Positions 55,301-57,677 of a DNA stretch of 64,000 nucleotides are shown here, piece by piece. The stretch lies in NCBI GenBank assembly GCA_010093705.1, contig MU006115.1:62001-126000 (forward strand), written 5' to 3'. Below the pieces are notes generated by a model. That model searched no databases and was not told the origin of the DNA. It saw nothing but the letters and a program-made list of their open reading frames with translations. This DNA is from Patellaria atrata CBS 101060. Lineage: Eukaryota. The translations under genes and the position numbers were made by a program. The number at the start of each line of letters is the position of its first letter. Position 1 is the stretch's first letter.

Positions 55301-56513
55301 CTTGAGTTGGGGTCCAGTTTATTTCCTCTAGCCGCTTGAGAAACATATTTCTTATTGATATGGATACGCGCGTTAATTCTTTGAGGCGACACAAGAAAAT
55401 CGTGGACGTCAGGTGTCAGCTCGTATCTGGTTTGCTAGACTTGACCATACGTTGGAGGGACCTATCTTACCGCTCTTATGGCCCCCTTGATAGAAAGATT
55501 AACGTGTATCGCCACAGAAGCCCAATGTCGTAAATGAAACTTGGTGGTCGTCTTCATTCAGTGCAGATCCGGTCGACGGATATCTACACTATTATTTCGC
55601 TCTAGAAAAATCCAACATCAGTCAAACTTTGTCTACGTAGTCAACAAGGTTGGGCTGCAACTATCAATGTAGAACGCACAAGGCCGAATGGACCAACATG
55701 TATGACCAAAGCAAGTTCGCCGCCCGTTTCGTTTCGTGGGGTACTCGAATTCTAGTATCTCTTAGTCATCTATATTGTATGAGATATTCACATTGGCCTG
55801 GGTCAGTTCCAAGAACGTCTTGAACGTCTGAATATCTCTACCTCTTCCCTTGCCACGTTTGGTACTCCTCGGTTCCCGTACGCTTGCTACACTCTGCTCG
55901 GTGGACACTCACGCTAAGATTTTAAACGCTTTGTACGACGTTAACATTGTACAGCTGCCAGTCTATTTTATCAGTCTGATCCAGTCTACACACGGGAGCT
56001 AGGCGCCATTTTCAAAACAAGCTTACAGTAACTTAGGAATTCCCTGATAAGGAAGGGATATCTGCTTGAGAGGGTTCATTGTATCAAGCCCATATTCTAT
56101 GCTTTCTTTTGCTATGCATAAATATGCTTCTCCAATATTCGTTGGTCAAATGTAGTAGCACACTTACTCATCATGAAGGATGATTACGGCGTAGGTGGAT
56201 TTTCGAGATTGCTAAAATGATCGATAGTTATTCCCTTTCATCTTTCTTTACATGTAACTTTTTCTACACAGGACTGTCTGCTAACAAGTAGCAGAGCATA
56301 GAAATCTAACCCTGCGATAATCATCACATCACTTTCAACTATACAATGATCTCCCTCGGCCGAGCGAGCTTCGAGTCAGGGCACAACGCTAGAACTATTT
56401 ATCTACAACTATAGCCTCCCAGAAAGCGATGACTTAAAAAGCGGCAAAACAACATTTAAATCGAGGAAGATAAAAAAAAAATAAAAGCTATAAATCTTCC
56501 TAGATCAAAGATC

Positions 56514-56625
56514 AAAAAGTCAAAACAGTTCCCACCCCTCCGAAGAGAGTAGTAGTCTGCCGGACCCTCCGACGGGGCCGAGGATCGAACCCAGGACGTG
56601 CTTCCACCATTAGGCCACAGGTTCT
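56514..56625 (-). ncRNA. Candidate RNA polymerase III transcript: tRNA-like head lacking the anticodon arm, plus two hairpins
   Basis: A box TGGCCTAATGG (56617-56607); B box GGTTCGATCC (56591-56582) within a 5-bp T-arm; hairpin with cUUCGg loop (56544-56541); T4 and T5 runs (56525-56522, 56518-56514); TTATAAA at 56662-56656. Confidence 0.6.
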
Positions 56626-57677
56626 GGGTAATGGAAAGATGTCATAGGTCGCTTGTTTATAAGCTGTGGGGTGTGAGAACGTGTTGGGAGACAACTTATG
56701 ATATAAATCAGGGGAAATTCGGGTATCAAACGCTAAAGGCCATGTACCCTCTAGTATGAACTATTCTACATCCTTCGCCTATAGTCACCAGAACTCTCTA
56801 TAAACATGGCCCTCGAAGAGCCCGCTCACATAAGAAGTCGTATTCTTTTTAGATCTCTATTTGCAGAAGTATAAACTCCTGCTCACCTTGGAGAGCTGCA
56901 AAAGGGAGCAAACCACGATGAGCCACCACAAAGAGAAATCGGCAGTGCACCCAGTAAGATTCTATCATGAAGTGAGTACCATACTATACGGAGTCGGATA
57001 CCCTTTTCCAAAAGTCTACTCATTCAGCGCGAGACAAAAAAATCACTTCTTTGAGAGCCAGATGCCTTATTAGAACTATACGAACTCTCCCACGCTAGCC
57101 ACTTCAGCTCCCAAGCCACCACAATGCACCTCACATACGAACGTCAACAACAACCCTTCGATTGTTCTTTCTAGAAGCGTAAAAACCTCCGCTCACGTTT
57201 TTAAAGCATGAAATGCGTCGTTGCCATTGGTCTGGCGTTGTCGGTGGCCTCTTAGGTAGCATCGTAGCTGTCATCACCTACCATCTAACGATTAGGATGC
57301 CTCCACAACTTTCAGCCGCACGCGACTTGAGCCAAATCTCGGTCCTTCTAGCGAATCATAATCGCAATAAAGTTGCAGAATCATGTAAGGCTTTAAAGGC
57401 TTAACAGGTGCCTGAAAACGTGGTATACTTGTGACTCGAGGCGGTAACTGGGTGCAAAGAGGAGGTGAGTATTTTTAGGTAGGTCACTTCAAGAACGAGT
57501 ATATATACGAACTTAACGTTTCGTACAGGACGATTATCTTGCATAGTCTAATATCAACATCAGATATAGAGCAATTGGGTTTCCCAAACCTCTCCACACT
57601 TGTTTGATACCATAAGATTTGTGTAGTATTTCTGTAGACCGACCATTTGATTCGTATCGCATTCCCTAAAGTTCATT

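What the first reader, a model, noticed from the sequence alone, without database searches (positions are those of the whole stretch)
56460..56665. Candidate novel Pol III RNA: tRNA mimic with D- and T-arms but no anticodon arm, followed by a UUCG-capped hairpin
Seen (minus strand): TTATAAA ~30 nt upstream, then GAACCTG-TGGCCTAATGGTGGAAGC (A box/D-arm)-ACGTC (like the tRNA variable loop AGGTC)-CTGGG TTCGATC CTCGG (T-arm/B box). Next come hairpin GGCCCC-GTCG-GAGGGTC (overlapping the T-stem end) and a long hairpin GGCAG-A-CTAC-TA-CTCTC-TTCG-GAGGG-GTGG-GAA-CTGTT, then TTTT/TTTTT. An AGGAAGAT/ATCTTCCT inverted repeat lies just downstream. The anticodon arm is absent, there is no proper acceptor stem, and only 15 nt separate the A and B boxes, so tRNA scanners would probably miss it. 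Established: A box + B box + T-run define type-2 Pol III genes, cUUCGg is a hallmark of structured RNAs, and D/T-loop elbow mimics without an anticodon occur in other RNAs (mascRNA, bacterial Y RNAs). Inference: a stand-alone ~110-nt structured RNA that does not match the 5S, SRP, U6, RNase P/MRP or snoRNA features I know. Alternatives are a tRNA-derived SINE or a known but uncharacterised fungal small RNA. The short A-B spacing is atypical for TFIIIC and is a caveat.
Basis: partly seen in the sequence, partly recalled or inferred. Interest (0 to 1): 0.78.

Follow-up and report, generated by a model that had tools for sequence, protein, structure and literature searches.

The report
Copy of a tRNA-derived dispersed repeat
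The tRNA-like piece followed by hairpins and a run of T is real, but it is one copy of a small repeat family scattered through this fungal genome, not a unique new RNA gene.

Summary
These are TTATAAA at 56662-56656, an A box at 56617-56607, a B box/T-arm at 56594-56578, two GC hairpins at 56579-56524, T4 and T5 runs, and a downstream inverted repeat. ARAGORN finds no tRNA and Rfam finds no family.

The new fact comes from laying the contigs of the two DNA runs that hold this locus. The 3' part, 56507-56602, recurs at 4 or more other loci of the same genome, at about 80-100% likeness and with unrelated flanks. That part holds the variable loop, T-arm, both hairpins and the first T run. The A-box/D-arm part is not shared at 80% or more.

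The hairpins are no more stable than shuffled sequence. The 15-nt gap between the A and B boxes is half the natural minimum of 31 bp (PMC11724288). I found no relative outside this genome, and no RNA data were available.

Best reading: a member of a low-copy, tRNA-derived, Pol III-type dispersed family. It is SINE-like and resembles the low-copy tRNA-related elements of Aspergillus fumigatus. A functional small-RNA gene family is not excluded. Interest is modest.

The parts
56656..56662 (-). TATA-like TTATAAA in single-copy flank. It lies 22-28 nt before position 56634 and 32 nt before GAACCTG.
   Evidence: Read. This stretch is at single-copy depth, so it is not part of the repeated unit.
56618..56634 (-). 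Possible 5' leader (CCATTACCCAGAACCTG). 56629-56618 is one arm of an imperfect inverted repeat with 56600-56589.
   Evidence: I2, 83% of 12 nt. The minimum-energy folds use this pairing.
56601..56617 (-). D-arm-like segment with a full A-box match (TGGCCTAATGG, 56617-56607). No other contig shares it at 80% or more.
   Evidence: 1 of the 2 matches in the window. In one search, bins 56606-56621 are at single-copy depth.
56507..56602 (-). The part repeated elsewhere in the genome: variable-loop-like ACGTC, T-arm, hairpin 1, hairpin 2 and the T runs.
   Evidence: table 8. Contigs of 16486, 9032 and 4093 nt (run X1) and 14763, 6484 and 5539 nt (run X2) align only over 56507-56600, 56521-56600 and 56552-56602. 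Their loose ends on both sides are unlike the window.
56578..56594 (-). T-arm-like hairpin CTGGG-TTCGATC-CTCGG holding the B box GGTTCGATCC (56591-56582).
   Evidence: Exact 31- and 35-nt unitigs over 56565-56600 have about twice the single-copy depth (records 6, 7, 15).
56562..56579 (-). Hairpin 1 (GGCCCC ... GGGTCC). Position 56564 varies among copies.
   Evidence: table 3 shows three states at 56564. Fold z = -0.9.
56524..56561 (-). Hairpin 2, with TTCG at 56544-56541.
   Evidence: fold z = -1.57. Other copies carry extra bases on both strands of the stem (table 4, insertions at 56535-56536 and 56546-56548).
56514..56525 (-). T4 (56525-56522) and T5 (56518-56514) runs, likely Pol III terminators.
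   Evidence: The alignments of three other copies reach 56521, 56514 and 56507, and one continues into a run of 10 or more T (tables 7 and 8).
56460..56505 (.). Inverted repeat with 12-nt arms around a T-rich loop. It is single copy and largely outside the repeated unit.
   Evidence: I1; single-copy depth.

Best explanation
The element is one copy, divergent at its 5' end, of a small dispersed family of units about 100-125 nt long. The family is derived from a tRNA gene.

Each unit keeps a tRNA-type internal promoter region. The T-arm with its B box is best conserved, and the A-box side is poorly conserved. The anticodon arm is absent. A GC-rich 3' part unrelated to tRNA follows, which can form two hairpins, and the unit ends in T runs.

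Shown: the motifs, the repetition at 4 or more other loci, and the lack of any match to a known RNA family.

Inferred: TFIIIC binds the B box. Pol III starts about 56634-56624, perhaps helped here by the upstream TATA-like box. It stops at T4 or T5, giving an RNA of about 100-120 nt that ends in U. Copies spread by retroposition of that transcript (SINE-like) or by small duplications. Without an acceptor stem, the window's copy would not be cut by RNase P or RNase Z.

I regard it as selfish or decaying Pol III-type DNA rather than a gene with a cellular role.
For: 1. Motifs.

2. Repetition. Of 10 contigs laid in X1 and 11 in X2, two per run are the window's own, with 0 differences. These break inside the core at 56571-56594, as unitigs do at a repeat. 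Three long contigs per run, at the same depth as the window's own (X1 314-332 against 321-325; X2 438-465 against 395-461), align only within 56507-56602. They carry 2-10 mismatches and 2-6 gaps, and their flanks are unlike the window on both sides. A further long contig diverges at 56570, and short ones diverge at 56556.

3. Every difference listed tables 3-4 lies at or below 56570; none is listed in 56571-56600. This fits a family held together by its B-box region.

4. The other copies also reach the first T run, and one runs into 10 or more T.

5. Fungal precedent (PMC5063351, passages read). The A. fumigatus tRNA-related SINE-like sequences are low copy (1 to 4 or more) and have A boxes more degenerate than B boxes. 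They also have a 3' tRNA-unrelated part before an oligo-T tract, and do not fold as cloverleaves.

6. TFIIIC binding is governed by the B box, with nanomolar affinity against micromolar for the A box (PMC11724288, introduction passage).
Against: - No target-site duplication is established. ATCTTT (56640-56635 and 56512-56507) and GATTTATA (56709-56702 and 56496-56489) flank the unit, but both are at chance level.
- The 3' end is T-rich. It is not the A-rich or LINE-derived tail of classic SINEs.
- Only a handful of copies were seen.
- The A-B gap of 15 nt is below the natural 31-93 bp range (PMC11724288), so normal TFIIIC engagement of both boxes is doubtful.
- Stronger conservation of the core than of the rest could also mean selection on a functional RNA or DNA site.
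- The tables are truncated (5 pieces and 5 indel rows not shown, and the 2-3 mismatches of one copy are not located). The invariance of the core and the copy count are therefore lower-bound readings.
Confidence: 0.52

Rival explanations
1. A small multigene family for a functional, undescribed Pol III small RNA. The tRNA-derived head serves as promoter and perhaps as a tRNA-like handle. The hairpins are the working part.
For: The promoter-like core is conserved while the rest varies, and the T runs are kept in the copies that extend that far.

Hairpin 2 appears to survive an indel on both strands. Three other copies carry extra bases at 56546-56548 and also at 56535-56536, where the window's copy lacks both (table 4). 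By my reading of a 30-nt loose end, another copy forms CCACG/CGTGG plus CCTC/GAGG around the same TTCG (table 7).

By eye, the 30 nt upstream of the core in the other copies contain a stretch complementary, with one mismatch or bulge, to GGCCCCGTC just after the T-loop (8 of 9 in one group). That would give an acceptor-like closing stem (table 7, consensus agreement only 0.72-0.73).

There is no Rfam match.
Against: - Fold energies are not better than shuffles.
- Stem position 56564 shows three states, including pair-breaking ones, and one copy has C opposite A in hairpin 2. This looks like drift.
- At least two copies have a quite different 3' body after 56570 or 56556 (table 7).
- No homologue was found outside this genome, although the collections searched hold few fungal genomes.
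- The covariation rests on one event and on my reading by eye.
Confidence: 0.22
2. Repeated DNA that is not a Pol III unit at all. It could be a fragment of a larger or different mobile element, or a small segmental duplication, that happens to include a tRNA-derived piece. The A box in the window's copy would then be incidental flank.
For: The A-box part is not shared with the other copies, and all alignments stop at 56600-56602. The A-B spacing is unsuitable for TFIIIC (PMC11724288).
Against: Both flanks of the window's copy are single copy, so the repeat is only about 100 nt long and not part of a big element here. A full 11-nt A-box match 15 nt from a B box is unlikely by chance. T runs end the shared part.
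Confidence: 0.14
3. Sites that bind TFIIIC without Pol III transcription (extra-TFIIIC or ETC-like sites). Only the B box and its surroundings would matter, and they would act in chromatin organisation.
For: The best-conserved stretch is the B box plus about 10 nt on each side. ETC sites are known in several eukaryotes (PMC11724288, introduction passage).
Against: The copies also share about 60 nt beyond the B box, plus T runs, which a binding site alone does not need. There are no binding data.
Confidence: 0.06
4. A single decayed tRNA pseudogene with chance hairpins downstream.
For: There is no anticodon arm and no acceptor stem. The hairpins are not significant.
Against: The hairpin region and the T-arm together recur at 4 or more other loci.
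Confidence: 0.04

Closest known systems
AfuSINE2, the tRNA-related SINE-like sequences of Aspergillus fumigatus (PMC5063351; I read the abstract and the passages found)
   Same: A filamentous ascomycete. Very low copy number. A tRNA-related head in which the A box is more degenerate than the B box. No cloverleaf fold. A 3' part unrelated to tRNA that ends at an oligo-T tract.
   Different: Those elements are 140-493 bp with 4-14 bp target-site duplications. This unit is about 100-125 nt, has only 15 nt between the boxes, and has no proven duplications. I could not compare sequences because none was at hand.
Canonical tRNA genes (type-2 Pol III promoters)
   Same: A box, B box/T-arm, D-loop-like GG, and a T-run terminator.
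   Different: No anticodon arm and no acceptor stem. The A-B gap is 15 nt against a natural 31-93 bp (PMC11724288). About 65 nt lie between the T-arm and the terminator. Neither ARAGORN nor Rfam calls it.
tRNA-like heads that drive and release downstream hairpin RNAs: the gammaherpesvirus 68 tRNA-miRNA genes and MALAT1-mascRNA. These are recalled from memory. Of the papers, only listing abstracts were seen (PMC4337559, PMC8223928).
   Same: A tRNA-like Pol III promoter piece followed directly by stem-loops and a T run.
   Different: In those systems the tRNA-like part has an acceptor stem that RNase P and RNase Z cut. The window's copy has none. Hairpin 2 has only about 13-14 pairs.
Extra-TFIIIC (ETC) sites (PMC11724288, introduction passage)
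   Same: A conserved B box with a weak or absent partner A box.
   Different: ETC sites are not followed by a shared 60-nt body and terminator.

Membership tests
tRNA gene | Cloverleaf with an anticodon arm, recognised by tRNA finders | tested here: not met
   ARAGORN finds 0 genes in the window. No tRNA model hit appears even at E up to 10. Lowered thresholds give only calls that use the T-rich tail as a T-arm.
tRNA gene | 7-bp acceptor stem joining the 5' and 3' ends | tested here: not met
   Read: GAACCTG (56624-56618) has no complement after the T-arm (CCCCGTC follows).
Type-2 Pol III transcription unit | A box and B box on one strand in the right order | tested here: met
   56617-56607 and 56591-56582, minus strand.
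Type-2 Pol III transcription unit | A-B distance in the natural range (31-93 bp in yeast tRNA genes, PMC11724288) | tested here: not met
   15 nt between the boxes.
Type-2 Pol III transcription unit | Run of 4 or more T shortly after the RNA body | tested here: met
   TTTT at 56525-56522 and TTTTT at 56518-56514.
Type-2 Pol III transcription unit | A Pol III transcript exists | not testable with these tools
   Only 2 runs of 1 study hold the locus. Neither is on record as RNA, and both behave as DNA.
tRNA-derived SINE | tRNA-related head with an internal promoter | tested here: met
tRNA-derived SINE | Dispersed copies with unrelated flanks | tested here: met
   4 or more other long contigs align only within 56507-56602. 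Few copies were seen.
tRNA-derived SINE | Target-site duplications | tested here: inconclusive
   A 6-nt and an 8-nt direct repeat flank the unit. Both are at chance level, and the flanks of the other copies could not be read.
tRNA-derived SINE | A-rich, simple-repeat or LINE-derived 3' tail | tested here: not met
   The unit ends in T runs. One other copy ends in 10 or more T (table 7).
tRNA-derived SINE | Partner LINE that shares the 3' end | not tested
   No whole genome was held for this window.
Any described RNA family (Rfam 15) | Score at or above the family's gathering cut-off | tested here: not met
   0 of 4227 families over the whole window. The best local match overlapping the element scored 14.7 bits against a cut-off of 55.
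tRNA-like head that releases a cargo RNA (mascRNA or TMER type) | Acceptor stem plus T-arm recognised by RNase P and RNase Z | tested here: not met
   The window's copy has no acceptor stem. A possible closing stem in other copies rests only on my reading of 30-nt loose ends.

The most novel reading that the evidence does not exclude
The family encodes a fungal Pol III small RNA of a new kind. A stripped-down tRNA mimic keeps the T-arm and, in most copies, an acceptor-like closing stem, but has no anticodon arm. It serves as promoter and processing handle for a downstream UUCG-type hairpin RNA. This would be a cellular counterpart of the viral tRNA-miRNA genes or of mascRNA. The window's copy would be a variant that has regained a perfect A box.
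Probability: 0.12. Interest if true: 0.65.

Novelty: new variant of a known kind. Interest (0 to 1): 0.3.

Why it matters
What looked like a unique new RNA gene is a member of a small tRNA-derived repeat family.

Such low-copy Pol III-type elements are barely catalogued in Dothideomycetes. tRNA finders and Rfam both miss them. This one is unusual in lacking the whole anticodon arm and in ending with T runs.

If the copies prove to be transcribed and conserved, they would be a cheap entry point to Pol III promoter requirements in filamentous fungi (a B box with a very close A box). They could also reveal a new small RNA. If not, the family is one more short repeat to mask in annotation.

Tried and rejected
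- Whole-genome search: no genome is held for this window.
- Expression: no RNA holder is listed. The only 2 runs (1 study) behave as DNA of the same organism. This says nothing about expression.
- Second copy in the window: none. The pattern search with up to 3 mismatches found 1 match, the element itself. With blastn-short and nhmmer the next best match was 13 nt.
- Relatives elsewhere: the exact 22-nt core found 0 loci in metagenome contigs. A degenerate B-box plus CCCCGTCGG pattern found 15 loci. All have 49-73% GC, 0 of 15 have a tRNA by ARAGORN, and none shows the T-stem or hairpins on reading. I take these as chance matches.
- Literature: the 15-nt core string occurs in 0 papers. The listings show no description of such an element in this fungus or class; I saw only titles and abstract starts for these.
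- ARAGORN at lowered thresholds gave a 'tRNA-Pro with a 49-nt intron' and a 'tRNA-Ser'. Both use the T-rich tail as the T-arm, so I rejected them as artefacts.
- A resemblance to 5S rRNA that I recalled from memory was rejected. No 5S model appears even at E up to 10, and I could not align a real 5S sequence.
- I considered a primer-binding-site relic of an LTR element and a Helitron 3' end by reading the sequence. Both were dropped: there is no TGG before the complement of the tRNA-like end, and the hairpin is about 35 nt from the nearest CTAG.
- A C-box-like GTGATGTGATGA near 56331-56320 gave a weak SNORD94 match at E 3.7. I saw no D box within about 150 nt, so I do not read it as a snoRNA.
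- Copy number from summed depth (up to about 12 times single copy at 56574-56589) was not used. Overlapping unitigs and tRNA genes inflate it.
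Full report
**1. What is in the sequence**

On the minus strand the region reads in this order:
- TTATAAA (56662-56656).
- A 37-nt spacer ending in CCATTACCCAGAACCTG.
- TGGCCTAATGG (56617-56607), a full match to the A-box consensus TRGCNNARTGG.
- 15 further bases.
- GGTTCGATCC (56591-56582), a B box, inside a T-arm-like CTGGG/TTCGATC/CTCGG (56594-56578).
- A short GC hairpin (56579-56562), then a longer bulged hairpin with TTCG at its tip (56561-56524).
- TTTT (56525-56522) and TTTTT (56518-56514).
- Downstream, an inverted repeat with 12-nt arms (56460-56471 and 56494-56505).

The D-arm-like piece is joined directly to an ACGTC 'variable loop' and the T-arm. Start to start, the two boxes are 26 nt apart, against 44 in a standard tRNA. 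The missing piece is thus about the size of an anticodon arm (my arithmetic).

**2. Chance or not**

Each box alone occurs at chance frequency in the window: 2 matches each, with 1.75 and 2.02 expected. This is the only place where the two lie together on one strand, and the repetition described in section 4 settles that the core is not a chance string.

The hairpins are another matter. Against dinucleotide shuffles the z-scores are:
- +0.92 for 56515-56626;
- -0.12 for 56634-56513, -0.9 for hairpin 1, and -1.57 for hairpin 2.

The minimum-energy folds do not use the T-arm. Hairpin 2 is folded in a register with a CUUC loop. Thermodynamics therefore gives no support to a specially structured RNA. 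It does not exclude one either.

**3. Known families**

- ARAGORN finds no tRNA or tmRNA in the 64 kb.
- Rfam 15 gives no match at gathering score over the whole window.
- A permissive scan of 56200-56900 gives four matches at E 1.7-7.2, all far below cut-off. None is to tRNA, 5S, SRP, U6, or RNase P/MRP.
- ARAGORN with lowered thresholds produces two calls that borrow the T-rich tail as a T-arm. I reject these as artefacts.

**4. The decisive result: the 3' part is repeated in the genome**

No whole genome is held for this window. Two sequencing runs of one study hold the locus completely. I laid their contigs on 56350-56800 at 80% or more likeness.

*The window's own contigs.* In each run, two contigs with 0 differences are the window's own sequence. 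They end inside the element, overlapping at 56571-56594, as assembly unitigs do where a repeat begins.

*Other copies.* Three further long contigs per run have the same depth as the window's own (X1 314-332 against 321-325; X2 438-465 against 395-461). This makes them single-copy loci of the same genome. Their sizes are 16486, 9032 and 4093 nt in X1, and 14763, 6484 and 5539 nt in X2. They align only over:
- 56507-56600 (10 mismatches, 4 gaps);
- 56521-56600 (5 mismatches, 6 gaps);
- 56552-56602 (2-3 mismatches, 2 gaps).

Their loose ends on both sides are unlike the window. One more long contig diverges at 56570, and short contigs diverge at 56556 and 56514. Exact unitigs of 31 and 35 nt over 56565-56600 have about twice the single-copy depth.

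*Limits of the table.* 16 of the 21 laid pieces are listed, and 5 pieces and 5 indel rows are not shown. My count of '4 or more other loci' is therefore a lower bound. I do not use summed depth as a copy number.

*What is and is not shared.* All alignments stop at 56600-56602 on the 5' side. The A box and D-arm-like piece (56603-56626) and the TATA-like box are not shared at this threshold.

**5. What the copies say**

*Distribution of differences.* Every difference that one search lists lies at or below 56570. None is listed in 56571-56600, which holds ACGTC, the T-arm and CCCCGTC. The table is truncated, and one copy's 2-3 mismatches are not located, so this is 'best conserved' rather than proven invariant.

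*Hairpin 1.* Position 56564 takes three states among copies. Some improve the pairing and some break it, depending on the register.

*Hairpin 2.* Three other copies carry extra bases at 56546-56548 on the 5' strand and at 56535-56536 on the 3' strand. The window's copy lacks both. By my reading of a 30-nt loose end, another copy forms CCACG/CGTGG and CCTC/GAGG around the same TTCG. This is one apparently compensated indel. It is suggestive but remains a single event. One copy also has a C opposite A inside the stem.

*Divergent 3' bodies.* At least two copies have a different 3' body after 56570 or 56556.

*Tails.* Three copies reach the first T run, and one continues into 10 or more T.

*Upstream of the core.* The other copies have C-rich sequence and a stretch that is complementary, with one mismatch or bulge, to GGCCCCGTC just after the T-loop (8 of 9 in one group). 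This could close the T-arm like an acceptor stem. The reading rests on my eye and on consensus loose ends with 0.72-0.73 agreement (table 7). I list it as a lead only.

**6. Context**

The window is fungal. It holds:
- a Brr2/SNRNP200-type helicase, open at the window's end (58805-64000, minus strand);
- a Zn2Cys6 transcription factor;
- a protein kinase;
- a dynamin-family protein;
- dynactin p62.

The dynactin ORF is 100% identical to a protein that its source names as from Patellaria atrata CBS 101060. The next best match has 52% identity. The lineage therefore has no close sequenced relative in that database.

The element lies in a 2.3-kb stretch (about 55276-57637) without long ORFs. The window holds no second copy.

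**7. Relatives elsewhere**

- The exact 22-nt core has no match in the metagenome contigs.
- A degenerate pattern gave 15 loci with 49-73% GC. None has the T-stem, the hairpins or a tRNA. I take them as chance matches.
- The 15-nt core string occurs in no paper of the library.

These collections hold few fungal genomes, so this is weak evidence about conservation.

**8. Interpretation**

The architecture is that of a type-2 Pol III unit. It has a head derived from a tRNA gene, an unrelated body, and T runs. It is present in a few diverged, dispersed copies.

The closest described things are the low-copy tRNA-related SINE-like sequences of Aspergillus fumigatus (PMC5063351, passages read). They have:
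- 1 to 4 or more copies;
- A boxes more degenerate than B boxes;
- a 3' unrelated part before an oligo-T tract;
- no cloverleaf fold.

TFIIIC binding is dominated by the B box. Natural A-B distances are 31-93 bp (PMC11724288, introduction passage read). The 15-nt spacing here therefore argues that the A box of the window's copy is not used in the normal way. It also fits that paralogues keep the B box and not the A box.

I commit to the following reading. It is a SINE-like or otherwise duplicated selfish Pol III-type unit. If active, it is transcribed from about 56634-56624 to T4 or T5. The window's copy is not processed like a tRNA because it has no acceptor stem.

I do not file it as a SINE proper, because two defining features fail or are open. 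The tail is T-rich rather than A-rich or LINE-derived, and target-site duplications are unproven. The candidates are ATCTTT, which would bound a 122-nt unit at 56634-56513, and GATTTATA; both are at chance level.

**9. Rivals**

- A functional small-RNA gene family stays open at about one in five. In its favour are the conserved core, the kept terminators, one compensated indel and the possible closing stem in other copies.
- Repeated DNA with an incidental tRNA-derived piece is less likely.
- ETC-like TFIIIC sites are also less likely.
- A lone decayed tRNA pseudogene is contradicted.

**10. Verdict**

The element is a new variant of a known kind, of modest interest. The decisive work is a search of the full assembly and of related genomes for all copies with their flanks, plus a small-RNA blot or sequencing.

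Noticed in passing
window 58805-64000 (minus strand): A long open frame of 1731 aa runs off the window's end. It has two Sec63/Brl, two DEAD/helicase and SNRNP200 winged-helix domains, so it is the spliceosomal Brr2/SNRNP200 helicase gene with few or no introns in this part.
   Followed up: partly
window 18835-20349 (plus strand): A dynactin p62 ORF is 100% identical to a protein that its source names as from Patellaria atrata CBS 101060. The next best of 640 hits has 52% identity, so the lineage is isolated.
   Followed up: partly
window 56320-56331 (minus strand): GTGATGTGATGA holds two overlapping C-box-like motifs about 190 nt downstream of the element. It gave a weak SNORD94 match (12.4 bits, E 3.7). 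I saw no D box within about 150 nt.
   Followed up: partly
window 56460-56505: An inverted repeat with 12-nt arms (92% complementary) encloses a run of ten T just after the element. It is single copy in the genome runs and its function is unknown.
   Followed up: no
window 56536-56543 and 56565-56572: The octamer TCGGAGGG (minus strand) occurs twice, 29 nt apart, once in each hairpin. This hints at an internal duplication in the 3' body (D3).
   Followed up: no
window 1-64000: No tRNA gene was found in 64 kb of a fungal genome, and no Rfam family at gathering score.
   Followed up: yes
window 51452-52837, 57796-58641, 11411-13078: Long stop-to-stop frames of 461, 281 and 555 aa have no Pfam domain. 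They may be lineage-specific genes, or non-coding in the case of 57796-58641, which overlaps a 238-aa frame on the other strand.
   Followed up: no
window 6877-9960, 25357-28413, 45920-48523: A Zn2Cys6 fungal transcription factor, a protein kinase with a DUF7891 domain, and a dynamin-family GTPase.
   Followed up: no
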